From contig MFQN01000007.1 in the NCBI GenBank assembly GCA_001783065.1, positions 1 through 53,676 on the forward strand: a stretch of 53,676 nucleotides of DNA, written 5' to 3'. The position numbers and the translations under genes are program-made. Below, piece by piece: positions 3,975-44,481 of the stretch. The notes under the pieces are model-generated. The model saw nothing but the letters and a program-made list of their open reading frames with translations. It did not search any database and was not told where the DNA came from. Origin of the DNA: Candidatus Magasanikbacteria bacterium RIFCSPLOWO2_12_FULL_43_12 (lineage in GTDB: Bacteria; Patescibacteriota; Patescibacteriia; Magasanikbacterales; UBA922). How positions within the stretch are numbered: the first letter of the stretch is position 1; each line of letters begins with the position of its first letter.

Positions 3975-5657
3975 TTAAAACAATTTTATTATCTTAATCT
4001 CCGGACCCAAACTGGACGAATAAAAAAGCTCTTTCAACCCGTCGCCAAAACCGTCTGGAATGCGCTCATTTCCAATAACACCGTTTTCCGACCCTGCAAA
4101 AGTCAATGCCTCCTCACCCGGAGCGCCGACCAAAGATAGCGCGCCCTTGGCAATGGCAAAAGCCGGACTATAGATTAGATATTGATAATTATTTCGCGAA
4201 AGATACTCGGACAAACCGCTAAAAAAAATTTTATCTCCAACCGTATAAAGATTTAGGGCATTAAATTTTTGTTCAAGTTGTTTTCCCAATTTAGCTTCAG
4301 CGCGGTCAACATTGCGTAAAGATGCCGAATCAATATTTTCTTGCTCTTGCAGATTTTCCGGCGTGGTTGGCAGGCGCATCAGAGGCGTCAAAACCGCAAC
4401 TTTGGCGTCAGCCGATACATTTGCCACAGCCCAATTTATCGCCTGCTCCCGCGTATCATTTTTAATTAATAAATAATTAAATCGTAAAATGGGAATAGCC
4501 AACAAAACGCAAACAACCACCACGATTGTCAAACGCAACGGCCTAACCGATATTCGATCCGCAACTTGAGCCAAACCATAACCGGAGCTAACCGCCAAGA
4601 ACGGATAGAGTGGTAGAATAAAACGGTCAACGTAGCCAAAAAATAAATAAAAAATGGCAAGATAAAAAAAGAAAAAACTCGCAAATACCAGAGCCTTGCG
4701 CCGCTCAACCAAAAACATAGATAACAAACCCACAGTGGCAAAAAGCAAAAATAATGGCTCAATGCGAATTAAATTTGCAATGTAAAAACCAAAAAAATCA
4801 ACTAAACCAATCAAATCTTTGGTGGCGCCGGCTGAAGTGATATTTCCCACACTAAGCAAGTAACCATAACCGCGCGGCCAAAGAACAAAAGCAAATCCAA
4901 AAAGTGAGAAAAATATTCCGCCTGCCTGCCAAAACCATTTTTGCCGTAATAATTTTACAATCGGTTGATAATCAAAAATAAAAAACCAAAGTATAACCAA
5001 TACCCCAAAAATCATCATTTGGACATTCATCCCTACGCCGATGCCCATTAGCAAAGCAACCCATAAATAACGTTTTGAAACGGTCAGGCCGCGATTAGCC
5101 AAAATATAAATACCGAGCGTGTAAAAAAAAGTCACTGCCGTCCAATGCCTGGCCCAATGCGAATAACTAACGGGCAAAAAACTTAAAGCCAAAAACAGAG
5201 CGGACAACAGGGCAATTCTTTTTTTCTGGAACATCTGCCGGGCGGCGGCGTAAACGAAATAAACGGTTGCTAAACCAAAAACAGCGCTTATGACGCGGGC
5301 GGTAATAAAAAAAACAGACGGATCGGCGATTAAATAATTTTTAAACTGTTCAAATGTTCCGGAGAAAAATAAAAATTTAATTCCTGCCACCAAGATAAAA
5401 GGCAAGATATACAGATAAGAAAGATAAGGCGTGTAATGGAACGTGCCAACAAACTCATCAGCGTGAAGTACTGGCAAAAGTGTTTTTAACTCTATCATTT
5501 TTAACGCTCCGAATATATGCGACGGCTCATCCCCCACCAACCATAGAGGCAAACCGTAATCAAGACCGACAAAACGGACAATCGCGGCAAAAGCTAAAAT
5601 AATAATTAAATAAAAATGCTCTTTCCATTGCGGAACTAACAATTTGGGATTGAACAT
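3975..5657 (-). CDS. membrane glycosyltransferase, family 39/83-like (ArnT/PMT)
   Basis: 560-aa ORF. It has a multi-span N-terminal region with an acidic first-loop motif (LWLVGDEPSH) and a soluble C-terminal domain, which is the GT-C layout. Confidence 0.6.
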   Translation of the reverse strand: MFNPKLLVPQWKEHFYLIIILAFAAIVRFVGLDYGLPLWLVGDEPSHIFGALKMIELKTLLPVLHADEFVGTFHYTPYLSYLYILPFILVAGIKFLFFSGTFEQFKNYLIADPSVFFITARVISAVFGLATVYFVYAAARQMFQKKRIALLSALFLALSFLPVSYSHWARHWTAVTFFYTLGIYILANRGLTVSKRYLWVALLMGIGVGMNVQMMIFGVLVILWFFIFDYQPIVKLLRQKWFWQAGGIFFSLFGFAFVLWPRGYGYLLSVGNITSAGATKDLIGLVDFFGFYIANLIRIEPLFLLFATVGLLSMFLVERRKALVFASFFFFYLAIFYLFFGYVDRFILPLYPFLAVSSGYGLAQVADRISVRPLRLTIVVVVCVLLAIPILRFNYLLIKNDTREQAINWAVANVSADAKVAVLTPLMRLPTTPENLQEQENIDSASLRNVDRAEAKLGKQLEQKFNALNLYTVGDKIFFSGLSEYLSRNNYQYLIYSPAFAIAKGALSLVGAPGEEALTFAGSENGVIGNERIPDGFGDGLKELFYSSSLGPEIKIIKLF

Positions 5658-18910: not shown

Positions 18911-19006
18911 GTCATTGCGAGGAGCTCGCGCGACGAAGCAATCCAGCAATCGCATTAGAACGCGATAACGGTGTGGATTGCTTCGCCTGCGAAGGCTCGC
19001 AATGAC
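18911..19006. repeat. nested-palindrome element, copy A (GTCATTGCGAG...CTCGCAATGAC family)
   Basis: Outer inverted repeat GTCATTGCGAG / CTCGCAATGAC; inner inverted repeat GAAGCAATCC / GGATTGCTTC. It is intergenic, just upstream of the GT start at 19059. Confidence 0.85.
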
Positions 19007-28384: not shown

Positions 28385-28475
28385 GTCATTGCGAGCCTTC
28401 GCAGATGAAGCAATCCACACTCGTTAACCGTTGGCGACTGGATTGCTTCGTCGTCTGCAGACTCCTCGCAATGAC
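28385..28475. repeat. nested-palindrome element, copy B
   Basis: GTCATTGCGAG...GAAGCAATCC...GGATTGCTTCG...CTCGCAATGAC, lying between the sigma and anti-sigma-like genes. Confidence 0.85.
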
Positions 28476-29892: not shown

Positions 29893-29996
29893 GTCATTGC
29901 GAGAAGGCCAACATTCATTGGCCGACGAAGCAATCTACGGCAATCGCTTGTGGTTATGATGGATTGCTTCGTCGTCTGCGGACTCCTCGCAATGAC
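29893..29996. repeat. nested-palindrome element, copy C
   Basis: GTCATTGCGAG...CGACGAAGCAATC...GGATTGCTTCGTCG...CTCGCAATGAC. It is intergenic. Confidence 0.85.
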
Positions 29997-32221: not shown

Positions 32222-34957
32222 ATGGAGACCACGAAGAAGGCCGCAGTGGCCACGGTTCTGGTTCTGTTCTCGGTTCTGTGCGGGTGCTCAAACGTGACCA
32301 TGCAGTGCGAGACGGACTCGGACTGCGACGACGACAATCTGTGCACCAAAGATTCTTGCGGTGCGGGCATCTGCCACTTCGCGAAAATCAAGAAGTGCGA
32401 CAGCCAGCAGATGTGCGATGATGACGCTTGTGGCAACTCCGACGACGGCGAGTCCAACGAGGACTCGTCCCCGCCACCTGACGAACAGCCAGACGGTGAT
32501 GTATCACCAGACACTGACAGCCCACCGACCGAGCCCGGTCCGGACACTACCGACACATCCGACGCAACGTTGGACAGTTCTGACAGCACTGACGCTGGAG
32601 ACGAAGCTGATGACACTGACATCAGTCAGTCGGACCAGCCAGACACGCCTGTCGGAGACGACGGTGCGACTGGCGGCGATGACGGAACTGGTACGGACAC
32701 GAACGACAGCGAAGTTGCTGGAGACGTAAGTGTGGACGACGATGTCGGCCAGGACGCGGAAACGGTGGAAGAGACAACTCCTCTGCCTTGTATCTGCATC
32801 TCTGACGACAACCTCTGCACGGACGATTACTGCAACGACGCAGACGAATGCGTCCACGAGCCGGTTGTCGGTTGTGGTGGCGTTGATGTTGAAACGCCGA
32901 ATGCCGACGGTAGCGATACTGTTGACAACGGAGTTGACGCGTCAACCACCAACCCTGAACCAAGTCCGGACACAGCAGAAACCGACGCAACGTCTGACGG
33001 TTCTGACAGCGCGGACGGAGACAGTGGAACAATCGTTCCGCCGCCACAAGATACTGTCGTCGGAACCGATGCACCGACTACCACTCCAGACACCAGTCCG
33101 GATACCGCGGACACTGTTGACAGTGAGACTGGAGACGGTGGAACGGATGCAATCAACAATACGGACGTGACCAACGGAAATGCAGAAGTTGAAAATACTG
33201 ACGACGATGTCGGCCAGGATGCGGAAACGGTGGAAGAGACAACTCCTCTACCTTGTATCTGCATCTCTGACGACAACCTCTGTACTGACGACTTCTGCAA
33301 CGACGCAGACGAATGCGTCCATGAACCGATTGTTGACTGTTGCAACGAAGACACCGGGTGCGACGACGGAGACATTTGCAACGGAGTGGAAGCCTGCGAC
33401 GCGAACAAGTGCGTCGGTGGTGAACCACTCGTTTGCGACGACAAGAACGTCTGCACCGACGACTCATGCCACCCAACCGAGGAGTGTATCTTCACTCCCA
33501 ACTCCAACCTCTGCGACGATGGCAACGCCTGTACGATGGGCGATGTCTGTTCACAGGGCAAATGTGCATACACGGAAACGTGTGAATGCACAATGGACAC
33601 CGAGTGCGACGATGGAAGCAAGTGCACCACTGAATCGTGCGTTAGCAACAACTGCAAGTACGAAAAAGTGGAATGCAACGACTCCGACGCCTGCACCACC
33701 GACACCTGCGAACCGACAACCGGCTGTGTGTTCGCGCAGATCGTCGTTGACGACTCCAACGCCTGCACGGACGACAGTTGCGACATGGAGACAGGCGTGA
33801 TACACGTTCAAATTGCGTGCGAAGACAACGATGTCTGCACAAAAAACCTCTGTGTTGCAACAGAAGGGTGCATCTATCTGCCCATCGCCGACTGCTGCCA
33901 CGATGACGCCGAGTGCGACGACGGAGACGTTTGCAACGGAGTTGAGACCTGCGGCGACAACAAATGCGTCGCGGGGCAAAAACTCATCTGTAACGACTTC
34001 AGTGTCTGCACTACGGACTCGTGCGACCCGAGCAAAGGTTGTGTGTTTGAACCAATCAGCGGATGTTGCAAGACAGATGTTGATTGCAACGACTTCAACC
34101 AGTGTACCGGCGATGCCTGTGTCAAATCCACCGGCGAGTGCGTGCACTTCGGCATCCCAGGCGACTGCAACGATGGTGACGAGTGCACCACGAACGACGC
34201 GTGCAAGAACAGCGAGTGCGTCGGCGGTCCGGCTCTGGATTGCAACGACAGCAGTGTCTGTACCGCGGATTCGTGCGACACGGCTACCGGCTGTCAGCAT
34301 TCGGCTGTCCCAGATGGTGAGCCGTGTACTGACAATACTGTTTGCAATGGCGCAGAAATGTGCCAGAGCGGACAGTGCAAGTCCGGTGTGGCGCTCAACT
34401 GCGACGATGTGGACATCTGTACCGCAGACTCGTGCGACACGGCGGACGGCTGCAAGCATTCAGCCGAACCGGATAACGACAGCGATGGTCCATGCGACCT
34501 CGCTGACAACTGTCAATCGGTTGCGAACGCTGACCAGTCAGACATGGACAAAGACAGCGTCGGCGATGTCTGCGACCCGGACAAAGACGGTGACGGCGTG
34601 GACAACGCCGCTGACAACTGTCCTTCAACCCCAAACCCCGACCAGTCCGATATGGACAAAGACAGCGTCGGCGACGCATGCGACACTGTCAACACCTGCA
34701 ACCTTTCAACCGCTGGACTTCCAGCGTGGTACTACCAAATATCCCCGATGTGCGTCAACGGTTGCTTCGTGGGTGACGAGATGGTATGCATCAAATGCAT
34801 CTCTTCCCACAACAACTGCACGTGGAACAGCGACGGGGACTGGGTAGGACCAATATGCCAGGGCGACTGCAATGATGGTTACTCCGGCATAACAAACGAG
34901 TGTTGGCCGGGAGGGCAAATACCCCCGGTCTGCGCGGATCCATGGACCCCTCAATAA
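32222..34957 (+). CDS. GC-rich secreted/lipoprotein-like cysteine-rich repeat protein (Dictyostelium-CTDC-like repeats plus thrombospondin type-3 repeats)
   Basis: 911 aa. The N-terminus METTKKAAVATVLVLFSVLCGCSN is a signal peptide with a possible lipobox. An acidic D/T/S/P-rich region is followed by more than 20 repeats of the C.D.N.CT.D.C....GC type. Two TSP3-like units read DNCQSVANADQSDMDKDSVGDVCD and DNCPSTPNPDQSDMDKDSVGDACD. An AGGTG RBS sits 4 nt upstream of the ATG. Confidence 0.75.
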   Translation: METTKKAAVATVLVLFSVLCGCSNVTMQCETDSDCDDDNLCTKDSCGAGICHFAKIKKCDSQQMCDDDACGNSDDGESNEDSSPPPDEQPDGDVSPDTDSPPTEPGPDTTDTSDATLDSSDSTDAGDEADDTDISQSDQPDTPVGDDGATGGDDGTGTDTNDSEVAGDVSVDDDVGQDAETVEETTPLPCICISDDNLCTDDYCNDADECVHEPVVGCGGVDVETPNADGSDTVDNGVDASTTNPEPSPDTAETDATSDGSDSADGDSGTIVPPPQDTVVGTDAPTTTPDTSPDTADTVDSETGDGGTDAINNTDVTNGNAEVENTDDDVGQDAETVEETTPLPCICISDDNLCTDDFCNDADECVHEPIVDCCNEDTGCDDGDICNGVEACDANKCVGGEPLVCDDKNVCTDDSCHPTEECIFTPNSNLCDDGNACTMGDVCSQGKCAYTETCECTMDTECDDGSKCTTESCVSNNCKYEKVECNDSDACTTDTCEPTTGCVFAQIVVDDSNACTDDSCDMETGVIHVQIACEDNDVCTKNLCVATEGCIYLPIADCCHDDAECDDGDVCNGVETCGDNKCVAGQKLICNDFSVCTTDSCDPSKGCVFEPISGCCKTDVDCNDFNQCTGDACVKSTGECVHFGIPGDCNDGDECTTNDACKNSECVGGPALDCNDSSVCTADSCDTATGCQHSAVPDGEPCTDNTVCNGAEMCQSGQCKSGVALNCDDVDICTADSCDTADGCKHSAEPDNDSDGPCDLADNCQSVANADQSDMDKDSVGDVCDPDKDGDGVDNAADNCPSTPNPDQSDMDKDSVGDACDTVNTCNLSTAGLPAWYYQISPMCVNGCFVGDEMVCIKCISSHNNCTWNSDGDWVGPICQGDCNDGYSGITNECWPGGQIPPVCADPWTPQ
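32735..32863 (+). repeat. internal direct repeat, copy 1 (129 bp)
   Basis: Near-identical to 33200-33328, 465 bp downstream. It encodes DDDVGQDAETVEETTPLPCICISDDNLCTDDYCNDADECVHEP. Confidence 0.85.
33200..33328 (+). repeat. internal direct repeat, copy 2 (129 bp)
   Basis: See copy 1. There are a few mismatches (GGACGCG/GGATGCG, CTGCCT/CTACCT, TAC/TTC, CAC/CAT, GAG/GAA). Confidence 0.85.
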
Positions 34958-35246: not shown

Positions 35247-36350
35247 ATGCTCATTCTCGGCATTGAATCTTCATGCGATGATACTTCAGTCGCGCTGGTT
35301 GACGCTTCTACGCGCGGCTTTAAAATACTGGCGGAAAAAACCGCCAGCCAAATTGAAATACACAAAAAATACGGCGGGGTGGTGCCGGAAATAGCGGGGA
35401 GAATGCATGCGGAAAAAATCTTACCCCTGATTGAAGAAGCGGCGGCTAAACAACCAAAACCAGATATAATTGCCGTAACATCCGGACCGGGATTGATTAC
35501 CGGGTTGATGGTTGGAGTTGAGGCGGCGAAAACATTGTCTTATTTGTGGAATGTGCCGGTGGTTGGAGTGAATCATATTGAAGGACATATCCATTCCGTA
35601 GAAATTTTCAATTTTCAATTTTCAATTTTCAAAATTAAATATCCTGCGATAGCGTTGATTGCGAGCGGAGGGCATACGGAGTTGATTTTAATTAAAAAAC
35701 GCGGACAATACAAAAAAATCGGCGCGACGCTGGATGACGCGGCCGGGGAGTGTTTTGACAAAGTCGCAAAATTGTTAGGTTTTGATTATCCCGGCGGACC
35801 AAAAATTTCTAAATTCGCGGAAACAGGAAACCCTGATGCTATAAAATTTCCACGACCGATGCTGGATAAAAACAATTTTGATTTTAGTTTCGCTGGACTA
35901 AAAACCTCCGCGCTGTATTGGCTTCGCGACCATACCGTCATTGCGAGGAGGAGCCGAAGCGACGACGAAGCAATCCAATCATCAAATGACACTGGATCGC
36001 CGCGTCGCTACGCTCCTCGCGATGACTTATCCGTCAACGACTTCTGCGCTTCTTTTGAACAAGCCATCATTGATGTCCTCGTCGGTAAAACTCTGAAAGC
36101 TGTTGAAAAATACAAACCCAAAACCATAATATTAGGAGGTGGGGTGGCGGCAAACAAAAAATTGAGGGAGACACTCTCAAGCGCAATCAAACAACGTTCT
36201 CAAATATCCAATCTCAAATATCCAATCTCCAACTACTGTATGGACAACGCCGCCATGATCGCTGTCGCCGGATATTATCACGCAATAAAAAAAGGCTTCA
36301 CGCCGTGGCAGAAATTAAAAGCTGATCCGGAATGGGAGATAGCCCACTAA
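35247..36350 (+). CDS. tsaD: tRNA N6-adenosine threonylcarbamoyltransferase
   Basis: 367 aa. It has MLILGIESSCDDTSVALV, GVNHIEGHI, ASGGHTELI, GGPKISKFA and CMDNAAMIA. Three repeat-derived in-frame insertions are present (see findings). Confidence 0.9.
   Translation: MLILGIESSCDDTSVALVDASTRGFKILAEKTASQIEIHKKYGGVVPEIAGRMHAEKILPLIEEAAAKQPKPDIIAVTSGPGLITGLMVGVEAAKTLSYLWNVPVVGVNHIEGHIHSVEIFNFQFSIFKIKYPAIALIASGGHTELILIKKRGQYKKIGATLDDAAGECFDKVAKLLGFDYPGGPKISKFAETGNPDAIKFPRPMLDKNNFDFSFAGLKTSALYWLRDHTVIARRSRSDDEAIQSSNDTGSPRRYAPRDDLSVNDFCASFEQAIIDVLVGKTLKAVEKYKPKTIILGGGVAANKKLRETLSSAIKQRSQISNLKYPISNYCMDNAAMIAVAGYYHAIKKGFTPWQKLKADPEWEIAH
35603..35636. repeat. AATTTTC x4 heptamer array inside tsaD
   Basis: AATTTTCAATTTTCAATTTTCAATTTTCAAAATT encodes (E)IFNFQFSIFKI between the HxxxH-type metal motif and the SGGHT motif. 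Confidence 0.85.
35937..36026. repeat. nested-palindrome element, copy D (90 bp, in frame inside tsaD; right inner arm degraded)
   Basis: GTCATTGCGAGGAGGAGCCGAAGCGACGACGAAGCAATCC...CTCGCGATGAC is translated as VIARRSRSDDEAIQSSNDTGSPRRYAPRDD. Confidence 0.8.
36199..36230. repeat. CTCAAATATCCAAT x2 (plus a partial unit) array inside tsaD
   Basis: It encodes SQISNLKYPISN just before the conserved CMDNAAMIA. Confidence 0.75.
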
Positions 36351-36379: not shown

Positions 36380-37321
36380 ATGCCGTTAAAAATCATCAGC
36401 GGGTCAAGCCACAGAGAATTTACAAAAAAAATCTGCGCGCATCTTGGTATTGAAAAAACAAAAATAACTTCCAAAATCTTCAGCAACGAAAACAGGTTCG
36501 TGACAATTGACGAAGCGGTGCGCGGCGATGATGTGTTTGTGATTCAAACCCAAGCCACGCCGGTTGATTCCAACATTATAGAATTGCTGATTTTAATCCG
36601 CACATTGCGCGACGCTTCGGCCGGACGAATTACCGCGGTAATGCCCTACTTTCCTTATGCCCGTTCTGATAAAAAAGACCAGCCCAGAGTTTGCATCGCG
36701 GCGCGTTTGCTGGCGGATATGATAGAAAAAGCCGGCGCTGACCGGATTTTAACCATGGAATTGCACTCGCCGCAAATTCAGGGATTTTTCTCCGTTCCTT
36801 GCGACCATCTGCTCGCCGCGCCGGACATTATTAAATTTCTAAAACAAAATTGGGATTTAACAAACTGTGTTTTAGTCGCCGGCGACTCCGGAGCGGTAAA
36901 AATGATAAAACCTTATGTTGATTATTTGAATTTACCCACCGCGATTATGGACAAACGCCGAGAAGGCAATGATGAAACAGTAAGAATAAAAGGCGTTATC
37001 GGCGAGGTAAAAAATAAAAATGTTCTACTGCTGGATGATGAAACAACCAGCGGCGGCACGTTAGTGGAAAACGCCGAATATCTGACCAAACAAGCCGGCG
37101 CGTTGAGAGTTGACGCCTGTTTTATTCATCCGACTTTTAACGACAAAGGCGTGGAAAAATTAAATAATTCGCCAATCCAAAAATTCCTGTTTACCGATAC
37201 CATCCCGCTGAACAGCAAACCGATTAAAAACTACGAAATAATTTCTGTGGCAGAAAGATTCGCGGAAATGATAAAAAGAATTCATGATAACGAAAGCGTT
37301 AAATCATTAAATGATGTCTAA
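36380..37321 (+). CDS. prs: ribose-phosphate pyrophosphokinase
   Basis: 313 aa. It has PYFPYARSDKK and DLHSPQIQGFF-like (MELHSPQIQGFF) motifs, plus the PRPP loop LLLDDETTSGGTL. Confidence 0.9.
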   Translation: MPLKIISGSSHREFTKKICAHLGIEKTKITSKIFSNENRFVTIDEAVRGDDVFVIQTQATPVDSNIIELLILIRTLRDASAGRITAVMPYFPYARSDKKDQPRVCIAARLLADMIEKAGADRILTMELHSPQIQGFFSVPCDHLLAAPDIIKFLKQNWDLTNCVLVAGDSGAVKMIKPYVDYLNLPTAIMDKRREGNDETVRIKGVIGEVKNKNVLLLDDETTSGGTLVENAEYLTKQAGALRVDACFIHPTFNDKGVEKLNNSPIQKFLFTDTIPLNSKPIKNYEIISVAERFAEMIKRIHDNESVKSLNDV

Positions 37322-37412
37322 ATTTATGCCATACGAAAAACAGGAGTACCGCGATCCGCCGCGCGATAGCGCCGTATGAAGATGAGAGGATGAGAGAGAA
37401 TGGAGATGTATA

Positions 37413-38414
37413 TTAGTTCGCTAAAATTTTCTGCTTCAGCGCGAAACAATTACCGTGCTTCACTAATCCTAAATAAGAACGCAAAGTTCCTTCAGTCGGG
37501 TGAATTTTTATTCTCGCAAACATTCTATTTTTTGTTTTTGTACGCAGGACACGGTGGTCATTAAACAATACCCAACCAAGAAAATCCATACCAGAAGCAA
37601 TGGTTTTAATAAATAGTTTGTTTGGATGGAGTACGAGCGAAAGCTCGTCTCGCAAAAAATCTCTAATTTTTGGTATTAATTCTTCCAACCATTGTTTGTT
37701 GTGAGACAAAAACACAAAATCATCCGCATAGCGAATGTAATATCTTGCTTTTAATTTGTGTTTGATAAATTGATCAAGTTTGTTTAAGTAAATATTGGCA
37801 AAGAGTTGAGAGGTTAAATTGCCAAGTGGGAGGCCGTGTCTGTCATTGCGAGGAGTGAGGAACGAGCGACGAAGCAATCCAGTGTCGATTGGCGACTGGA
37901 TTGCTTCGCTCCCGTTGGTCGCTCGCAATGACGGATTGTTGCCTTTGTTTGAATAACTTTCAATCACCTCCTCCAATAATAAAATAATATTTCTGTCCGG
38001 AATATATTGTCTAAGAATATTTTTGAGAATATTATGGTCAATACTATCAAAAAACTTTTTAATATCGCATTTTAGTATCCAACAAGTACGAGTATGATTT
38101 TGACTAACTGCAAAAGCAAAAGAACGAAAATGATTTATTGCTCTATGCGTGCCTTTGTCTATACGGCAAGAATAAGAATCACCAATAAATGTTTTGTCAA
38201 AAAATGGGTAAAGTATTCTATAAACAGCATGGTGTAAAAGACGATCTCTGACCGAGGCCTTGTGAATGTGCCGACGTTTGGGGTCGTTGACGAAAAAACT
38301 TTCGTAACCACCGTGACTATAAGTAAAATTTGCCAAATCTTGATAAAGTGCTACAATGTTATCCATCAAGTCACGGGAGAATAATTGGACATCAGTTTTC
38401 TTTTTCTTGCCCAC
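37413..38414 (-). CDS. DGR-type reverse transcriptase (GTG start as annotated; N-terminus probably truncated; carries a 91-bp repeat insertion in frame)
   Basis: 333 aa. It has DRLLHHAVYRIL (motif 1/2 region), LKCDIKKFFDSIDH (motif 3), GLPLGNLTSQLFANIYLN (the DGR-specific [LIV]GxxxSQ motif 4) and YIRYADDFVF (YxDD). Confidence 0.85.
   Translation of the reverse strand: MGKKKKTDVQLFSRDLMDNIVALYQDLANFTYSHGGYESFFVNDPKRRHIHKASVRDRLLHHAVYRILYPFFDKTFIGDSYSCRIDKGTHRAINHFRSFAFAVSQNHTRTCWILKCDIKKFFDSIDHNILKNILRQYIPDRNIILLLEEVIESYSNKGNNPSLRATNGSEAIQSPIDTGLLRRSFLTPRNDRHGLPLGNLTSQLFANIYLNKLDQFIKHKLKARYYIRYADDFVFLSHNKQWLEELIPKIRDFLRDELSLVLHPNKLFIKTIASGMDFLGWVLFNDHRVLRTKTKNRMFARIKIHPTEGTLRSYLGLVKHGNCFALKQKILAN
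37842..37932. repeat. nested-palindrome element, copy E (in frame inside the RT gene)
   Basis: GTCATTGCGAGGAGTGAGGAACGAGCGACGAAGCAATCCAG...CTGGATTGCTTCGCT...GCTCGCAATGAC. On the minus strand it is translated as SLRATNGSEAIQSPIDTGLLRRSFLTPRND, immediately N-terminal to GLPLGNLTSQ. Confidence 0.85.
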
Positions 38415-38480
38415 AATAAAATCCTCTCAGGCCAATAACAAATTTTCTAAACCAAATTTTTCTGGTGGAGAATGAAAAAA

Positions 38481-38601
38481 CTGGCGGACGACGGCGAACG
38501 AGCAGTGCCCGTTCCAGACGCACTCGGCGGAGTCCAAGTAGAGCTTGCGGACGCCACCATTGCCGTTGACGTAAGGCACGAGACCGCGCCACACAGAACC
38601 G
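38481..38601 (-). repeat. DGR repeat in the template-repeat (TR) position, 66 bp upstream of the RT ORF
   Basis: 103/121 identical to 38965-39085 by hand alignment without gaps. It lies in no credible gene; only a 68-aa GTG-started ORF covers it. Confidence 0.65.
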
Positions 38602-38715
38602 TCACAAAATATACAAAACAGCGCCAATGCCACTGCCCCTAGAATACTCTCGGGGCTGAACCGAATTCGGAGACGTTATCTCCATACTGCTTTGTACCAA
38701 GTATTTTCATTTTTA

Positions 38716-38734
38716 ATCCTGATTAAATCAGGAT
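38716..38734 (-). other. 8-bp hairpin in the VR-TR spacer
   Basis: ATCCTGAT-TAA-ATCAGGAT. Confidence 0.5.
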
Positions 38735-38832
38735 AAAATTCAACCGCCCGAAGCCGTGTTCACTTCTTCAGCAAACAAAACCGCGGACTGTAGCGTTGAC
38801 TATCTACACTCTATTTTATCATAAAAAGAGGA

Positions 38833-38855
38833 ACCGTGCACTTCTGGTGCACGGT
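38833..38855 (-). terminator. hairpin / likely rho-independent terminator downstream of the DGR target gene
   Basis: 9-bp stem ACCGTGCAC / GTGCACGGT with loop TTCTG. On the minus strand it is followed by TTCCTCTTTTTATGAT. Confidence 0.6.
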
Positions 38856-38922
38856 ATCGGGCCGCTCCGTCGTGTGACGGAGGGATGGGAGAGAAAAGAG
38901 CGAAATCAGTGGGATAGGCCGC

Positions 38923-38947
38923 CGGACACCCGAGAACCGAGTGTCCG
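38923..38947 (-). promoter_or_regulatory. GC-rich hairpin 15-39 nt downstream of the target gene's stop codon (VR 3' end)
   Basis: CGGACAC-N11-GTGTCCG. Its position is analogous to the hairpin/cruciform that assists mutagenic homing in the Bordetella phage DGR. Confidence 0.45.
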
Positions 38948-38961
38948 AGCGACCAAGAAAC

Positions 38962-39606
38962 CTACTTGCGGACGACGGCGAACAAGCAGTGCTCGTCCCA
39001 GTCGTTCTCGGCGGAGAGCAGGTCGAGCTCGCGGCGGCCACCATCGCCGAGGACGTAAGGCACGAGAGCGCGCCACACAGAACCGAGGGCGAACACCAGA
39101 CAGTCCTTGTGCTTGTCAGGATTCTTGAGCCACCACCACAGCAACTCAACCAGAGTCGCCGAGCGATAGCCCTGCGAGTCAATGTAATCCTTGACTTCCT
39201 GCGTGGGCATCGTAGACCGGCCGAGCTCACGGAGCTTCTGCTTGATGGAGAGTGTCTCCACATGCTTCTGATCCAGATCGCCGCCATCGTACGGAAAATT
39301 CTTGCTGTTGATGTCCGAATTGCGGAACGAAACAAATCCGCACGCCGAAATCATCATTTCCAAGAACTTGTCCCACCAGTTGGCAGGAGCAGGGGCCGAC
39401 GTCGTCGGCTCCTGTCCAGCGATCAGCGCGGCCATCTTCTTGACCGTTTTGCGTCCATCCGGCTTGACCAGCTGGTGAAGACGCTCGTTGATAGCTTCCT
39501 CGTTGTCGCCGAGCAAATCCTTGAGCTCCTCCAAGAGCGCGCCGATCACAGACACAAGCCACCCGAGAACCTTCACGATCATGAACACGTTCTTCGCCTT
39601 TGGCAT
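38962..39606 (-). CDS. DGR target (variable) protein, membrane-anchored/secreted, with a C-terminal ligand-binding module carrying the VR
   Basis: The track ORF extends to 39642. The likely start is MPKAKNVFMIV (ATG at 39606) with GGAGGT 5 nt upstream. There is a hydrophobic N-terminus, GYRSATLVELLWWW is DUF1566/CLec-like, and the last 40 codons are the VR. Confidence 0.75.
   Translation of the reverse strand: MPKAKNVFMIVKVLGWLVSVIGALLEELKDLLGDNEEAINERLHQLVKPDGRKTVKKMAALIAGQEPTTSAPAPANWWDKFLEMMISACGFVSFRNSDINSKNFPYDGGDLDQKHVETLSIKQKLRELGRSTMPTQEVKDYIDSQGYRSATLVELLWWWLKNPDKHKDCLVFALGSVWRALVPYVLGDGGRRELDLLSAENDWDEHCLFAVVRK
38965..39085 (-). repeat. DGR variable repeat (VR), the last 40 sense codons of the target gene
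   Basis: It pairs with 38481-38601. The 18 mismatches all fall at codon positions 1 or 2. Confidence 0.7.
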
Positions 39607-39841
39607 GACGCACCTCCAACTTTTGGCTTGCCACTCACACAAAACACCATGTTCCGCGCCCCAGGCTTGCCAACCAAGGCCGAGATAACTCCCAGCCTTC
39701 TTTCTAACTTATTGCTAAAATAAGCCAAAAAGAAAGCTGGAAAAAATTATTTTTTTATAAGGAACTAACAAAGTATTGTACTACATTTTTAGAATCTTGT
39801 CAAGATACCTCCTTGTGCGCAATATTATAAAAGAACACCAA

Positions 39842-42800
39842 CTACTCACTCACCTCAACCCTCCCCTCTCCCGCCACTCTCTTCAACTCATCTTCAACAC
39901 CACTACTCCAATCAATCATTGCCTGCGCGCGGATAATATTGTCCGCGACTTTGACGAAAACCTGATACTCTCCCGGGTATTTTATAAATAAATTTTTTAA
40001 TTCTTGCGCCTTGTTTTTCAATTCTTCTTTACTTAAACTGATTGTTATCGCCTTATCCGGCTGATGTTGTTGAATGCTGTCGCTTGAAACACTTCCAATG
40101 GATAATTCGCGGCACACGCGCAAAGCGTTTTCTTTGGTGAGCAATAAAACTTTTTCAACAAACACTTTATTATCGCCTTTCTCTTTCGGCGTTTTGCCAA
40201 CCACGCAGACGATATTCCCCTCTTGCCACAAACCTTGCGTCTGTTCATATGTCTTGGGAAACACTAACAATTCCATCACGCCGGTAGTGTCTTGAATCGT
40301 GGCGAATATCATCACCTCGCCCTTTTTTGTGATTTTTTTCTTGATGGAATCAACAATGCCGCCGATTACCACCCAACTATCGCGCGGTGATTCCTCCACC
40401 TGATTCAATGGCACTAACGCGCGCGCCATCACCTTTTCAAAATATTCAAACGGGTGCGCGGAAACATACAGACCCAATAATTCTTTTTCCCATTTTAATT
40501 TATCGTCCAGACTCGCCGCCGAAGTATCTTTTAATTTAATTTTATTATCCAGCATTATATTTGAACCGGCAAACAAAGAATTCTGCGAAGTATTTTTGTG
40601 TTCGCGCCGTTCCCTGACAAAAGCCAATATATTCTCAACATTAAAAAGCAAAAGACCGCGGTCAAAACCAAAACAGTCCAACGCGCCGGACTTAATCAAA
40701 CTTTCCACTGATTTTTTATTTAAATCTTTATCATCAATCCGTTCCAACAGGTCTTCCAATGTCTTATACGGTCCTTGTTCTTTTCTTTCGCGATAAATCA
40801 CACCGCTGATATGTTCGCCTAAATTTTTAATCGCGTTTAAACCGAAACGGACGCGGCCAGGATCGCCGGGTTTGGATACCATGGCAAAATTACGAAAACT
40901 TTCGTTGACATCCGGCGGCAAAACTTCAATATTCATCCGCCGGCATTCGGCAACAATCTCCGCGACTTTATCGGTATCTCCTGACTCGGCCTGTAAAATC
41001 GCGGTCATATATTGCACCGGATAATGCGCTTTCATGTAAGAAGTTTGATAAGCGACGGTGCCGTAGCTTGCAGCGTGACTTTTGCCAAACCCATATGCCG
41101 CAAACGGTTCAATCATTTCCCACAACCGATTAATTTTTTCTTCCGACAAATTACCATTATCGCGGCAGCCTTGAAAAAATTTAATCTTCTGTTTTTCCAT
41201 TTCCGCGGGAATTTTCTTGCCAATCGCTTTCCTGAATTTATCCGCTTCGGTCCAACTATATCCGGCAAGTTCAATGGCGGTCAAAAGAACATCCTCTTGA
41301 TACACCAAAAGCCCGAAGGACGCTCCCAAATATTTTTCCATGCGCGGATCAAGATATTCAACCACCGCGGGATTGTGTTTACGGCGAATATATTCAGGTA
41401 TTGATTCCATTGGTCCCGGACGATACAAAGCGACCATGGCCATGATATCATCAATCGTCGTCGGTTTAAGTTCTTTCAACCAGCGCGTCATACCGGAACC
41501 ACCAAGTTGAAATGTGCCCATGGTTTCCCCTCGCGCGAGCATTTCAAATGTTTCTTTATCATCAAAAGGCAGTTTATAAATATCAATTTTTTCGCCGGTG
41601 GTTTTTTCCACGAATTCAACCGCTTTTCCCAAAATAGAAAGGTTGCGTATGCCCAAAAAGTCCATCTTTAACAAACCGGCTGCTTCCACCGCGTGCATTT
41701 CATATTGAGTAATTGTTTTTTCACCGCCGGTTTCTTTTTGCACCGGGGTAAAATCAGTTAATCGCGTTGGCGCGATAACCACGCCCGCGGCATGGATGGA
41801 AGTATGGCGCGCGCAACCCTCAACTTTTCTGGCCAAATCCAACAAAATTTTTACTTCCGGTTTTGAACCATAAAGTTTTTTTAAATCCGGCTCTTCAATC
41901 ATAGCGCGATCAATCGTCATGTGAAAACCCTGCGAACCCATCGGAATTAGTTTAGCCACCTGATCGCAAAAACTATAGGAATATCCGAGCGCTCGGCCAA
42001 CATCACGCACGCTCGCCCGCGCCGCCATGGTTCCGAAAGTGATAATCTGCGCCACTTTTTCTTTGCCATATTTATTGGTAACATAATCAATCATCTCATC
42101 GCGGCGATCATCGGCAAAATCCGTATCAATATCCGGCGGACTTGGACGAAACGGATTCAAAAAACGTTCAAACGGCAGTTTAAATCTGATCGGATCAACA
42201 GTTGTGATTCCCATTACGTAGGAAACCAAAGAACCGGCGGCCGAACCTCTGGTGGTTTCCACAATGCCGTGCTCCTTGGCATAATTGACATAGTCAGCCA
42301 CGCAAAGAAAATACGGCGAGTAGCCTTTCTCTCTAATAATTTTTAATTCATACTCCGCGCGGGTTTTAACTTCTTCGGTTATTGGCTGATAATAATCCCC
42401 GATTCTGGCATTAACAATTTCTTCCATCACTTCCGACGCGCTTTTCCCGATTGGTAATTCAACCGGCGCGAAATGCCAAGCGTTTAAATTGATTTCTAAA
42501 TTTATTCTTTCCGCTATTTTGACCGTGTTTTCAATCGCCTCCGGCACATGGCGAAAACGAGAAATAATATCTTTAGCGGAATTTAAAGAACGGTCCACCT
42601 GCCGAAAATCCTCGCGATTCATCTGACCGACTTTCCAGCCCTCGCGGATGCAGGTTAAAATATCTTGCGCTTCCGCGTCATCAGTTTCCAAATAATGAAC
42701 GTCGCGCGTTACTACCATTGGAATGCTGGTATCTTTAGATAATTGAATAATTTTTGTATTCACATCCAGCTGTCCTTCAATCGCCGGATGATCTTGCAGT

Positions 42801-44342: not shown

Positions 44343-44455
44343 GTCATTGCGAGGAGGAGCTCGCGCGATCCCTCTCATTCACTCGGGACAGGCTCCGCAA
44401 TCCAGTCGCCAATTGACGATGGATTGCTTCGCTCCCTTGGGTCGCTCGCAATGAC
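44343..44455. repeat. nested-palindrome element, copy F (longest, 113 bp)
   Basis: CTGTCATTGCGAGGAGGAGCTCGCGCG...GGATTGCTTCGCTCC...GCTCGCAATGACAG. It is intergenic between mtnP and apt. Confidence 0.85.
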
Positions 44456-44481
44456 AGACAGTTTAACTATCCACAAGCTAT

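What the first reader, a model, noticed from the sequence alone, without database searches (positions are those of the whole stretch)
37413..39606. Compact diversity-generating retroelement (target-VR, TR-position repeat, RT) without an avd-sized ORF
Seen in the sequence, reading the minus strand in order:
- The target CDS (39606-38962), whose last 40 sense codons form a 121-bp repeat (39085-38965).
- A non-coding spacer of about 360 bp holding three hairpins.
- A second 121-bp copy (38601-38481).
- The RT ORF (38414-37413), 66 bp further on.

The RT carries GLPLGNLTSQLFANIYLN. This is the [LIV]GxxxSQ motif-4 variant that separates DGR RTs from group II intron and retron RTs. It also carries YIRYADDFVF (YxDD).

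No ORF of 60 aa or more lies between the target and the RT, so the common Avd accessory protein is not encoded at this locus.

The target has a hydrophobic N-terminus and a GYRSATLVELLWWW...VR module reminiscent of DUF1566 / C-type-lectin-fold DGR targets.

DGRs are already known to be frequent in CPR-type genomes, so the element class is not new. The details of this copy, covered in the next findings, are unusual.
Basis: partly seen in the sequence, partly recalled or inferred. Interest (0 to 1): 0.75.

Follow-up and report, generated by a model that had tools for sequence, protein, structure and literature searches.

The report
Decayed diversity-generating retroelement, corrupted template
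This is a real diversity-generating retroelement of a common type in candidate-phyla-radiation bacteria, but it is a broken copy: a deletion removed its accessory gene and the start of its reverse transcriptase, its template repeat has lost about half of its adenines, and its variable region is identical in at least 12 assemblies.

Summary
It comprises a 214-aa target ending in a 122-nt repeat (39085-38964), a 360-nt spacer, a second copy (38601-38480) and an RT ORF (38414-37413).

The RT is a DGR-type RT. Its best solved relative is Bordetella bRT. The "compact, Avd-less" layout, however, is damage and not a design.
- All 73 informative loci of the same RT clade carry a reverse-strand avd between the TR and the RT.
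- In the window, about 430 bp are missing: avd, the 3' arm of the hairpin after the TR, and RT codons 1-13.
- The remaining 5' end of the RT carries TGG>TGA.

Only 6 of the 18 TR/VR mismatches lie at TR adenines. In five relatives of the same target family the figures are 17/18, 21/21, 21/22, 10/14 and 16/16. The window TR sits in a genuine TR context but is adenine-depleted: 11.7% A against 25.7 ± 2.1% in 64 relatives. It carries G, T or C exactly where the family's TRs have AAC.

The VR, TR and spacer are identical in 12 assemblies, while the flanking dnaE and prs genes carry SNPs.

Verdict: a degenerate B3-type CPR DGR that is inactive in cis. The one unusual feature is a template repeat that itself looks adenine-mutagenised.

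The parts
39775..39803 (-). Sigma-70-like promoter TTGACA-17-TACAAT upstream of the target gene
   Evidence: 11 of 12 matches. The same TTGACA box aligns in relatives L005 and L001. Function is inferred.
39692..39740 (-). Perfect leader hairpin of about 23 bp between the promoter and the target start codon
   Evidence: -31 kcal/mol, z -6.35. Conserved in L005 and, with changes, in L001. Role unknown.
38962..39606 (-). Target gene, 214 aa. It has a poorly modelled helical N-terminal part and a confidently modelled C-terminal domain (residues about 77-214). The family has no Pfam domain.
   Evidence: The exact protein is found on 19 contigs.
38964..39085 (-). Variable repeat (VR): the last 40 codons plus the stop codon of the target
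   Evidence: The hypervariable columns in the homologue alignment coincide with the mismatch codons. Invariant in 12 assemblies.
38968..38983 (-). GC-rich 16-nt block (GTTCGCCGTCGTCCGC) at the 3' end of the VR, identical in the TR. It resembles the GC-rich start of the initiation-of-mutagenic-homing (IMH) site of known DGRs. The repeats diverge right after it: VR ..CGC AAG TAG, TR ..CGC CAG TTT.
   Evidence: The same CAG (TR) versus AAG (VR) ending is seen in L010 and L014. The IMH function is inferred from the Bordetella model (PMC5758913).
38917..38954 (-). GC-rich hairpin 8 nt after the target stop codon. This is the position of the hairpin/cruciform that promotes homing in the Bordetella and Legionella DGRs.
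   Evidence: z -6.1 and -7.7. Analogous hairpins follow the VR in L001, L012, L014 and L017.
38823..38855 (-). Intrinsic-terminator-like hairpin plus T-run that ends the target transcript
   Evidence: Conserved in L005, L099 and L001.
38602..38702 (-). Conserved structured RNA element (model R1) directly 5' of the TR. It is intact in the window.
   Evidence: 106.6 bits, full length; covariation. No Rfam match.
38480..38601 (-). Template repeat (TR) locus. It is homologous in its flanks to the TRs of relatives but is adenine-depleted: 14 A in 122 nt and 3 AAY triplets. G, T or C stand where family TRs have AAC, at codons 16, 17, 21, 23, 27, 28, 31 and 32 of the repeat.
38452..38472 (-). Remnant of the TR 3' flank. 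It contains ATTCTCC and the 5' arm of the hairpin after the TR. The GC-rich 3' arm and the T-run are missing. The left edge of the deletion lies at about 38455-38451.
   Evidence: 57 of 64 relatives have a stem of at least 7 bp plus a T-rich tail here.
38415..38450 (-). Remnant of RT codons 14-26 (LENLLLA*EDFI). At 38429-38427 a TGA stands where relatives have the nearly invariant Trp codon TGG.
   Evidence: TGA ends 8 of 34 long ORFs in the window.
37413..38414 (-). Truncated RT ORF, 333 codons from a GTG that is Val-27 of full-length relatives. All catalytic motifs are present. About 26 residues of the N-terminal extension are missing.
37839..37935 (-). Nested palindrome of 97 nt inserted in frame in the RT between motifs 3 and 4. 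It adds about 37 aa.
   Evidence: (I5, I11). Similar inserts lie at the same site in P0014, P0015, P0016, P0018 and P0019.

Best explanation
The locus is a degenerate copy of the standard CPR-type DGR, architecture B3 of Wu et al. 2018. In that architecture the order is target-VR, then a structured 5' RNA element, the TR, a 3' hairpin, a reverse-strand avd, and the RT.

Shown:
1. A deletion of about 430 bp joins the loop region of the hairpin after the TR to RT codon 14. It removed avd, the G-run and start codon upstream of the RT, and RT codons 1-13.
2. The surviving 5' end of the RT has a TGG>TGA nonsense codon. Only a 333-codon ORF starting at an internal GTG remains. It lacks most of the N-terminal extension, which in Bordetella bRT is the surface that binds Avd.
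3. The TR has lost about 12 of an inferred 26 or so adenines, exactly at the family's diversified codon positions. The present VR therefore cannot have been copied from the present TR.
4. The VR, TR and spacer are identical in 12 assemblies.

Inferred:
- While the element still worked, or in its last aberrant act, adenine-mutagenised sequence was written into the TR itself. This could have been cDNA homing into the donor, or gene conversion from a VR allele.
- No complete TR-to-VR retrohoming has occurred since then, and the cassette is now inactive in cis.
- The target gene is still intact. It probably persists as an ordinary, fixed-sequence surface or binding protein.
For: RT identity and clade:
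- Best solved relative is bRT (8ub7), E 8e-37, versus 6e-17 for the best group II intron RT.
- More than 8000 homologues, mostly Patescibacteria.

Avd:
- 73 of 73 RT-clade loci with enough upstream DNA have a bAvd-like ORF on the opposite strand directly upstream of the RT. PF22296 is called in L008.
- No avd in the window by tblastn or by a 73-sequence profile.

Deletion and nonsense codon:
- The translation upstream of the GTG reads KFGLENLLLA*EDFIVGKKKK. Relatives read MKIQLLHTYNDIIKLENLLLAWEDFIVGKK.
- In the DNA alignment, GCC TGA GAG in the window corresponds to GCT TGG GAG in L009.
- TGA is a normal stop codon in this genome.

TR 3' hairpin:
- Present with a T-tail in 57 of 64 relatives. 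In the window only the 5' arm and a weak A/U hairpin remain.

The second copy is a genuine TR locus:
- The R1 element abuts it.
- The flanks TTGTATATTT and ATTCTCC are conserved with L010 and L011.

TR corruption:
- 6 of 18 mismatches lie at TR adenines. Relatives give 17/18, 21/21, 21/22, 10/14 and 16/16.
- At 4 sites the VR keeps the A while the TR has T or G.
- A fraction is 0.117 versus 0.257 ± 0.021 (minimum 0.192). AAY count is 3 versus a mean of 10.2 (minimum 6).
- VRs of close relatives (L099, L005, L004, L098) vary at codons where the window TR is non-A.

No current diversification:
- Ten further loci from ten samples, plus L007, are identical over the VR, TR and spacer. Within the same 5.8 kb, dnaE has 7 SNP sites and prs has 13.

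Relaxed constraint on the RT:
- Lineage-unique nonsynonymous/synonymous counts are 29/22 in the window, 17/33 in L008 and 29/46 in L009. Fisher p = 0.019.

Literature:
- B3 = TR-(avd)-RT accounts for 90% of CPR DGRs (PMC5758913).
- The bRT N-terminal extension contacts Avd (bioRxiv 10.1101/2023.10.23.563531).
- Degenerate DGR loci are already known (PMC10907252).
Against: - The retained 333 RT codons have no unique change at any of 104 otherwise-invariant alignment columns. All catalytic motifs are intact, and an AGGA lies 7 nt before the GTG. Expression of a truncated enzyme is therefore not excluded, and decay must be recent.
- The target gene, its promoter, the hairpin next to the VR and the R1 element are all intact.
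- Consensus assemblies cannot reveal low-frequency VR variants.
- Only 53.7 kb of the genome is visible, so a second intact cassette acting in trans cannot be excluded.
- The route by which the TR lost its adenines is inferred, not observed.
Confidence: 0.75

Rival explanations
1. The local TR/RT pair is a relic, but the VR is still diversified in trans. A second, intact avd-RT cassette, with an adenine-rich TR of the same family, would lie elsewhere in the genome.
For: - Relatives show that the modules can be dispersed. L010 (next gene ruvC) and L011 (next gene ileS) have target + TR with clean A-specific mismatches but no adjacent RT. L001, L004 and L098 have the target alone.
- The window VR keeps its recognition hairpin.
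- The VR is compatible with descent from an AAC-rich template.
- Remote targets are documented for DGRs (PMC5758913).
Against: - The VR is identical in 12 assemblies from at least 10 samples, while flanking genes vary.
- There is no second RT, avd or repeat copy in the 53.7-kb window.
- The VR carries two ordinary point changes at positions that are non-A and constant in all relatives: codon 6 GGT>GCT and codon 34 TCG>TTG. A fresh homing event would have erased them.
Confidence: 0.13
2. One reading: a naturally compact, working DGR (target-VR, TR, RT) that needs no Avd. This is comparable to the accessory-less architecture A of Wu et al.
For: - Architecture A (TR-RT, no accessory gene) makes up 29% of catalogued DGRs.
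- The RT ORF is open for 333 codons with intact motifs and no hits at invariant sites.
- The R1 element, VR hairpin and target are intact.
Against: - 73 of 73 clade members have avd.
- The RT N-terminus is visibly truncated and carries an in-frame stop inside conserved sequence.
- The TR 3' hairpin is broken.
- At least 8 mismatches lie where the TR is non-A, so the VR is not a product of this TR.
- The VR is frozen across samples.
- The nonsynonymous/synonymous ratio of the RT is raised.
Confidence: 0.06
3. The non-adenine mismatches reflect a low-fidelity or non-canonical mutagenic RT, as proposed in general for CPR DGRs. On this view the TR has not changed.
For: Wu et al. report non-A-to-N differences in 23% of DGRs, frequently in the CPR set, with a maximum of 11 in one target. 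They suggest lower RT fidelity as the cause.
Against: - Five DGRs of the same target family are almost purely A-specific.
- The window TR is a 6.7-sd outlier in adenine content among 64 clade TRs.
- The non-A mismatches sit exactly at codons that are AAC/AAT in family TRs. In four of them the VR, not the TR, holds the A.
Confidence: 0.04

Closest known systems
CPR-type DGRs of architecture B3, TR-(avd)-RT (Wu et al. 2018, NAR, PMC5758913; the CPR set derives from Paul et al. 2017)
   Same: - RT clade: 54-77% identity to hundreds of Patescibacteria RTs.
- Target-VR upstream on the same strand.
- TR preceded by the same structured RNA element and followed by the same ATTCTCC flank.
- AAC-based diversification in the family.
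- A GC-rich hairpin after the VR.
   Different: - The reverse-strand avd, the 3' arm of the TR hairpin and RT codons 1-13 are deleted.
- The remaining 5' end of the RT has a nonsense codon.
- The TR has lost about half of its adenines.
- The VR does not match the TR at non-A sites and is invariant across samples.
Bordetella phage BPP-1 DGR (mtd-avd-TR-brt; bRT-Avd-RNA structures 8ub7 and related entries)
   Same: - The RT is the closest solved homologue (E 8e-37). It shares the I/LGxxxSQ motif and YxDD.
- The VR lies at the 3' end of the target.
- A GC-rich block ends the repeat, followed by a hairpin after the VR.
   Different: - Gene order and avd orientation differ in the clade.
- The structured RNA lies 5' of the TR, not in a long 3' spacer.
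- In the window there is no Avd, and the part of the RT N-terminal extension that binds Avd in bRT is missing.
Degenerate or pseudogenised DGR loci, for example in Thiohalocapsa PB-PSB1 (Dore et al. 2024, PNAS, PMC10907252)
   Same: - Key machinery is missing or pseudogenised next to an intact target.
- The question of trans-complementation arises in the same way.
   Different: In the passages read here, the stated diagnostic for a matching template is a VR that matches a TR at all non-A sites. In the window the TR itself has changed at former A sites, so no such match exists locally.
C-type-lectin-fold / DUF1566 DGR target domains (Mtd, TvpA, Legionella Lcl C-terminal domain)
   Same: - The VR forms the last about 40 residues, modelled as the terminal beta-strands.
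- The protein ends in a hydrophobic-x-V-R-K motif.
- The top Foldseek hits are C-type lectins, the Lcl C-terminal domain (8q4e) and a phage DUF1566 protein.
   Different: - No Pfam, NCBIfam or PDB sequence or profile match.
- All structural matches are non-significant (E of at least 0.07, TM 0.36-0.56 relative to the target).

Membership tests
Diversity-generating retroelement (DGR) | Reverse transcriptase of the DGR clade (motif 4 [LIV]GxxxSQ, YxDD; closer to bRT than to group II intron or retron RTs) | tested here: met
   - GLPLGNLTSQ and YADD are present.
- bRT 8ub7 scores E 8e-37, versus 6e-17 for the best group II intron RT.
- The NCBIfam group II model scores 135 bits against a cut-off of 300.
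- The clade's neighbours are Avd and TR.
Diversity-generating retroelement (DGR) | Near-identical TR/VR pair, with the VR at the 3' end of a protein-coding target | tested here: met
   122 nt, 85% identical. The VR is the last 40 codons of the 214-aa ORF.
Diversity-generating retroelement (DGR) | TR-to-VR differences confined, or nearly so, to TR adenines | tested here: not met
   6 of 18 lie at TR adenines. Five family relatives meet the criterion: 17/18, 21/21, 21/22, 10/14 and 16/16.
Diversity-generating retroelement (DGR) | GC-rich IMH-like end of the repeat and an inverted repeat downstream of the VR but not of the TR | tested here: met
   A 16-nt GC-rich block is shared by both copies. 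A strong hairpin at 38954-38917 follows the VR only.
Diversity-generating retroelement (DGR) | Ongoing diversification of the VR | tested here: not met
   The VR is identical in the window, L007 and L100-L109 (ten samples), while the flanks carry 20 SNP sites. Read-level microdiversity could not be tested.
CPR B3-type DGR cassette, TR-(avd)-RT | Reverse-strand avd between the TR and the RT | tested here: not met
   Absent from the window. Present in 73 of 73 informative clade loci.
CPR B3-type DGR cassette, TR-(avd)-RT | Full-length RT with the conserved N-terminal extension (MKIQL...ENLLLAW.EF) | tested here: not met
   Codons 1-13 are absent and the Trp codon is TGA.
CPR B3-type DGR cassette, TR-(avd)-RT | Structured RNA element directly 5' of the TR (defined here as model R1) | tested here: met
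   Window 38702-38602, 106.6 bits. Found in 65 of 73 clade loci. 89% of cells are paired, versus 30-51% when the partners are slid.
CPR B3-type DGR cassette, TR-(avd)-RT | Adenine-rich TR (AAY codons) followed by a GC-rich hairpin and a T-run | tested here: not met
   A fraction 0.117 versus 0.257 ± 0.021; AAY count 3 versus 10.2. The hairpin is present in 57 of 64 relatives, but only its 5' arm is present in the window.
C-type-lectin-fold / DUF1566 / FGE-type DGR target | Sequence-profile match to DUF1566, FGE-sulfatase or related families | tested here: not met
   No Pfam or NCBIfam hit for the window protein or for any of the 9 family members. No PDB hit with the sequence or the profile.
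C-type-lectin-fold / DUF1566 / FGE-type DGR target | C-type-lectin-like three-dimensional fold, with the VR on the terminal strands | tested here: inconclusive
   - AlphaFold2 model: pLDDT 84-97 for residues about 80-214.
- The top PDB and BFVD matches are C-type lectins, Lcl (8q4e), Bd2740 and a phage DUF1566 protein.
- The best E-values are only 0.34 and 0.069, with TM 0.36-0.56.
Group II intron or retron | Intron RNA domains or msr/msd RNA, and a family-level RT score | tested here: not met
   No Rfam match in 37300-39900 at E up to 1, apart from a chance miRNA hit. Group II and retron RT models score far below their cut-offs.

The most novel reading that the evidence does not exclude
The template repeat was rewritten by the element's own adenine-mutagenised cDNA. 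That would be a natural case of retrohoming into the donor copy rather than the recipient copy. It may have happened in the same aberrant event that deleted the DNA from the cDNA priming end (the hairpin after the TR) through avd into the RT.

If so, the donor/recipient directionality of DGRs can fail in nature, and template burn-out is one route by which DGRs die. It would also suggest that some of the many non-A-to-N DGRs catalogued in CPR genomes are corrupted templates and not products of low-fidelity RTs.
Probability: 0.3. Interest if true: 0.6.

Novelty: new member of a known kind. Interest (0 to 1): 0.35.

Why it matters
As a DGR, this copy is ordinary in kind and broken in state. It should not be counted as evidence for a minimal, Avd-independent DGR.

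Its value is as a worked example.
- Comparison with relatives shows that "no accessory gene" and "many non-adenine mismatches", both used as descriptive categories in DGR surveys, can be signatures of decay: a deletion of avd, and a template that has itself been adenine-mutagenised.
- A naturally corrupted TR bears on how strictly donor-to-recipient directionality is enforced.
- It also bears on how DGRs are lost while their targets persist as fixed genes.

The comparative work also yielded a covariation-supported RNA element 5' of the TR across a large CPR DGR clade. This could help annotate TRs and define the DGR RNA in these elements.

Tried and rejected
- Second VR or true TR elsewhere in the window: blastn of the TR region finds only the two copies.
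- Avd hidden in a small or antisense ORF: tblastn with two clade Avds, and hmmsearch with a 73-sequence Avd profile against all six-frame segments of at least 25 aa, found nothing (best E 0.37, inside the RT antisense strand).
- TGA as a sense codon: rejected. TGA ends 8 of 34 long ORFs, and housekeeping ORFs are intact under translation table 11.
- Assembly artefact: rejected. Eleven other assemblies have the same junction and the same TGA.
- Neutral drift of a dead TR as the cause of the non-A sites: rejected. The TR changes sit at the family's AAC positions, while the 100 or so non-variable positions carry only 3 ordinary differences between the copies.
- The second copy as a duplicated target 3' end (a second VR): rejected. 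It has the conserved TR flanks and the R1 element.
- The palindromic insertion as the inactivating lesion: not supported. Several full-length clade RTs carry similar inserts at the same site.
- Searches for close relatives with an intact cassette of the same target sub-clade gave no adjacent TR. Pattern scans of genome and viral contigs gave no hits. L099 and L005 end before the TR, and L004 and L098 have none.
- The mosaic contig L006 (coverage 0.9) was not used as evidence about VR stability.
- Rfam: no family in the region.


Full report
OBSERVATION

On the minus strand, the window holds the following, in order:
- a 214-aa ORF (39606-38962);
- a 122-nt repeat formed by that ORF's last 40 codons (39085-38964);
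- a 360-nt spacer;
- a second copy of the repeat (38601-38480), 104/122 identical;
- 66 nt further on, an ORF of 333 codons (38414-37413) with GLPLGNLTSQLFANIYLN and YIRYADDFVF.

These are the only two copies of the repeat in the window. All 18 mismatches lie at codon positions 1 or 2 of the target frame, which by chance would be 7e-4. ORFs of 68 aa and 66 aa run through the second repeat. They are only open frames of the repeat itself, and nothing Avd-like exists.

THE RT AND ITS CLADE

- Pfam gives RVT_1.
- The best solved relative is Bordetella bRT (8ub7, E 8e-37). The next best is a group II intron RT at 6e-17.
- Group II, retron and defence-RT models of NCBIfam all score far below their cut-offs.
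- More than 8000 homologues exist. The named ones are Patescibacteria such as Magasanik-, Falkow-, Uhr- and Yanofskybacteria.
- I fetched 80 genome loci of the clade.
  - In 73 of the 73 loci with more than about 130 nt upstream of the RT, a bAvd-like ORF lies on the opposite strand directly upstream of the RT. Pfam bAvd is called in the closest relative, L008.
  - This is architecture B3, TR-(avd)-RT, which Wu et al. found in 90% of their CPR DGRs.

WHAT IS MISSING IN THE WINDOW

Read in the RT frame, the 66 nt upstream of the GTG translate as ...KFGLENLLLA*EDFIV|GKKKK. Full-length relatives begin MKIQLLHTYNDIIKLENLLLAWEDFIVGKK. The DNA alignment shows window GCC TGA GAG GAT against L009 GCT TGG GAG GAT. 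Homology starts only at codon 14. It follows that:
- RT codons 1-13 are gone;
- a nearly invariant Trp codon is now TGA (38429-38427);
- the "start" GTG is the internal Val-27.

TGA is an ordinary stop codon here, ending 8 of 34 long ORFs.

On the other side of the junction, the TR's 3' flank (ATTCTCC...) is conserved with relatives. In 57 of 64 relatives, that flank is the 5' arm of a GC-rich hairpin of 7-11 bp followed by a T-run. In the window the hairpin stops half-way, and only a weak A/U hairpin can form. Measured on L008, the missing stretch is about 430 bp. It comprises the 3' arm of the hairpin, avd, the G-run and start region upstream of the RT, and 13 RT codons.

In bRT, the N-terminal extension is the surface that contacts Avd (Handa et al.). 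One deletion therefore removed both partners of that interface.

The retained RT shows no change at 104 otherwise-invariant columns. Its lineage-unique nonsynonymous/synonymous ratio is raised, however: 29/22 against 17/33 and 29/46 (p = 0.019). That fits a recent loss of constraint.

THE TEMPLATE REPEAT

By TR base, the mismatches fall as A 6 of 14, T 5 of 29, G 5 of 40 and C 2 of 39. I asked whether this is a property of the family. It is not.

The target belongs to a small CPR-only family with no Pfam domain. In the five relatives that have a TR nearby, the mismatches at TR adenines are:
- L010: 17/18
- L011: 21/21
- L012: 21/22
- L014: 10/14
- L017: 16/16

Most of the exceptions in these relatives sit at the 3' boundary of the repeat, where in L010 and L014 the TR ends ..CAG and the VR ..AAG. 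The window shows the same ending.

The window's second copy is a true TR locus:
- The conserved RNA element abuts it.
- Both flanks are conserved with L010 and L011.

Where family TRs read AAC/AAT/GAC (repeat codons 16, 17, 21, 23, 27, 28, 31, 32), the window TR reads GGC, GTC, TAC, GAC, TGC, GTC, GGG, CAC. At four of these sites the VR still has the A. The VRs of the nearest relatives (L099 81%, L005 75%, L004, L098) vary at exactly these codons. The recent ancestor's TR must therefore have had adenines there.

In numbers, the 120 nt after the R1 element are 11.7% A with 3 AAY triplets in the window. In 64 clade loci they are 25.7 ± 2.1% A (minimum 19.2%) with 10.2 AAY (minimum 6).

The 18 mismatches break down as follows:
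- 6 are canonical A-to-N differences.
- 8 are sites where the TR has lost an ancestral A.
- 1 is the conserved boundary difference.
- 3 are ordinary point changes: VR codon 6 GGT>GCT, VR codon 34 TCG>TTG, and TR codon 22 CTG>TTG.

About 12 of an inferred 26 or so adenines in the TR were replaced. That is much the same proportion as in the VR, about 14 of 26. The TR therefore looks like one more draw from the element's own adenine mutagenesis. Neutral drift does not fit, because the changes avoid the roughly 100 non-variable positions.

IS ANYTHING STILL HAPPENING?

The exact target protein occurs on 19 contigs. Ten loci from ten samples (L100-L109), plus L007, have the same dnaE-target-RT(333 aa)-prs arrangement. 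Their SNPs are distributed as follows:
- dnaE: 7 sites
- prs: 13 sites
- target outside the VR: 1 synonymous site
- RT: 2 sites, both in the palindromic insert
- VR, TR and spacer: none

The junction and the TGA are therefore not assembly errors. The VR consensus is frozen in this population.

THE REST OF THE ANATOMY

- A strong promoter-like site (39803-39775) and a 23-bp leader hairpin (39740-39692) precede the target.
- A GC-rich hairpin (38954-38917) follows the stop codon. Analogous hairpins follow the VR in L001, L012, L014 and L017. This matches the hairpin/cruciform that helps target recognition in the Bordetella and Legionella DGRs.
- A terminator (38855-38823) ends the target transcript.
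- The remainder of the spacer is the upstream part of the TR transcript. It includes a structured element of about 100 nt.
  - I modelled this element from seven loci.
  - It is present in 65 of the 73 informative clade loci, always just 5' of the TR.
  - Covariation is strong: 89% of cells are paired against 30-51% when the partners are slid, and 21 of 26 pairs show double changes.
  - Rfam has no match.
- The RT's extra 37 aa or so come from a 97-nt nested palindrome (37935-37839), a repeat family scattered through the window. Several full-length relatives have similar inserts at the same site, so I do not regard it as the lesion.

THE TARGET FOLD

The AlphaFold2 model is confident for residues about 80-214, where pLDDT is 84-97. 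The VR forms the last three strands. Foldseek lists against PDB and BFVD are headed by C-type lectins, the Legionella Lcl C-terminal domain, Bd2740 and a phage DUF1566 protein. No match is significant: the best E-values are 0.34 and 0.069. No sequence or profile search links the family to DUF1566, FGE or known structures. A C-type-lectin-like fold is plausible but unproven.

INTERPRETATION

The best-supported account is a B3-type CPR DGR caught in decay. It has an avd/RT-5' deletion, a nonsense codon, a template that has itself been adenine-mutagenised, and no retrohoming since. The target survives as a fixed gene.

How the TR was rewritten is inferred. Two routes are possible:
- cDNA homing or recombining into the donor copy. 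The cDNA is perfectly homologous to the donor on both sides.
- Gene conversion from a VR allele.

The left edge of the deletion lies in the hairpin after the TR, near where cDNA synthesis would start. This invites the speculation that one aberrant event did both. I cannot test that.

RIVALS

- Trans-diversification by an unseen second cassette. This is possible, because relatives show dispersed modules. The frozen VR and the ordinary point changes in the VR argue against it.
- A working Avd-less compact DGR. This is largely refuted.
- A low-fidelity RT. This is refuted by the family comparison.

COMPARISON AND NOVELTY

The kind of element (a DGR, CPR B3 type) and the state (a degenerate locus) are both known (PMC5758913, PMC10907252). 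Wu et al. recorded up to 11 non-A-to-N differences in one target, frequently in CPR DGRs, and suggested RT infidelity as the cause. In this case, comparison with relatives points to template corruption as the cause. In the papers I could search, I found no description of a natural TR bearing the adenine-mutagenesis footprint. That search was limited.

I rate the locus as a new member of a known kind, with modest interest.

Noticed in passing
window 38602-38702 (-); also L008, L010-L012, L014, L017 and 65 of the 73 loci searched from L018-L096: A structured RNA element of about 100 nt lies immediately 5' of the TR throughout this CPR DGR clade, whatever the target type. It has five helices, and 21 of 26 pairs show compensatory changes. 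Rfam has no match. It may be the clade's counterpart of the RNA that surrounds the TR in the Bordetella DGR RNA. A motif GGCGGTTGAAT further upstream (window, L012, L014, L017) suggests that the domain may be larger.
   Followed up: yes
window 37839-37935; 35949-36026; 44398-44463; 18934-18985; 28437-28450; 29958-29971: A palindromic repeat family with core CGAAGCAATCCAGT occurs 8 times, against 0.34 expected. It is inserted in frame in the RT (about 37 aa) and in the tsaD ORF (peptide ..DEAIQSSNDTGSPRRYAPRDD..). Similar peptides sit at the same RT site in relatives P0014, P0015, P0016, P0018 and P0019. The only RT SNPs among the samples (37865, 37856) lie inside this insert.
   Followed up: partly
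window 38480-39640 and 32222-34957: The target gene and the TR are 55-65% GC. The adjacent RT and the housekeeping genes are 35-45% GC. A second GC-rich island (55-57% GC) encodes a 911-aa Cys/Asp-rich, probably secreted protein with repeated CxxDxxC modules.
   Followed up: no
window 39692-39740 (-); L005 and L001 upstream of their target genes: A perfect 23-bp hairpin (z -6.35) lies in the 5' leader of the target, between a near-consensus promoter and the start codon. It is conserved in relatives even where no TR or RT is adjacent. It may be a regulatory leader.
   Followed up: partly
L008 about 835-845; L009 about 20-31; L014 about 5412-5421: A run of 9-11 G lies 20-30 nt upstream of the RT start codon, between the divergent avd and RT genes, in three relatives. 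It falls within the stretch deleted in the window.
   Followed up: no
L001, L004, L098 (target alone); L010, L011 (target + TR, then ruvC or ileS): The modules of this DGR family are dispersed in different genomes. Some loci have the target alone, and some have target + TR without an adjacent avd/RT, yet the TR/VR mismatches are cleanly A-specific. This implies trans-acting RT/Avd, or recent loss. Genomic contexts differ: recJ/lepA, nusB/AAA, dnaE/prs.
   Followed up: partly
downstream of the VR stop codons in the window (38958-38917), L001, L010, L011, L012, L014, L017: The pentamer CTTGG recurs two to four times in the 60 nt after the VR in all family members, around the GC-rich hairpin. It could be part of the target-recognition site.
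   Followed up: no
window 38427-38633 (-): The open frame through the TR and the RT frame are the same reading frame, separated only by the TGA at 38429-38427. Gene callers differ: they aa from the GTG, or 317 aa from a later ATG in the NCBI record.
   Followed up: no
L006 (ENA ERZ5996431, coverage 0.9): This is a mosaic contig. Segments identical to the window, including the VR and 270 nt of spacer, alternate with segments about 10-15% divergent. It is either a chimeric assembly of two strains or recombination within the target gene.
   Followed up: partly
window 37377-37406 and 39867-39896: An inverted repeat of 30 nt, 77% complementary, brackets the whole cassette. One arm lies inside the 3' end of dnaE. 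It may be chance.
   Followed up: no
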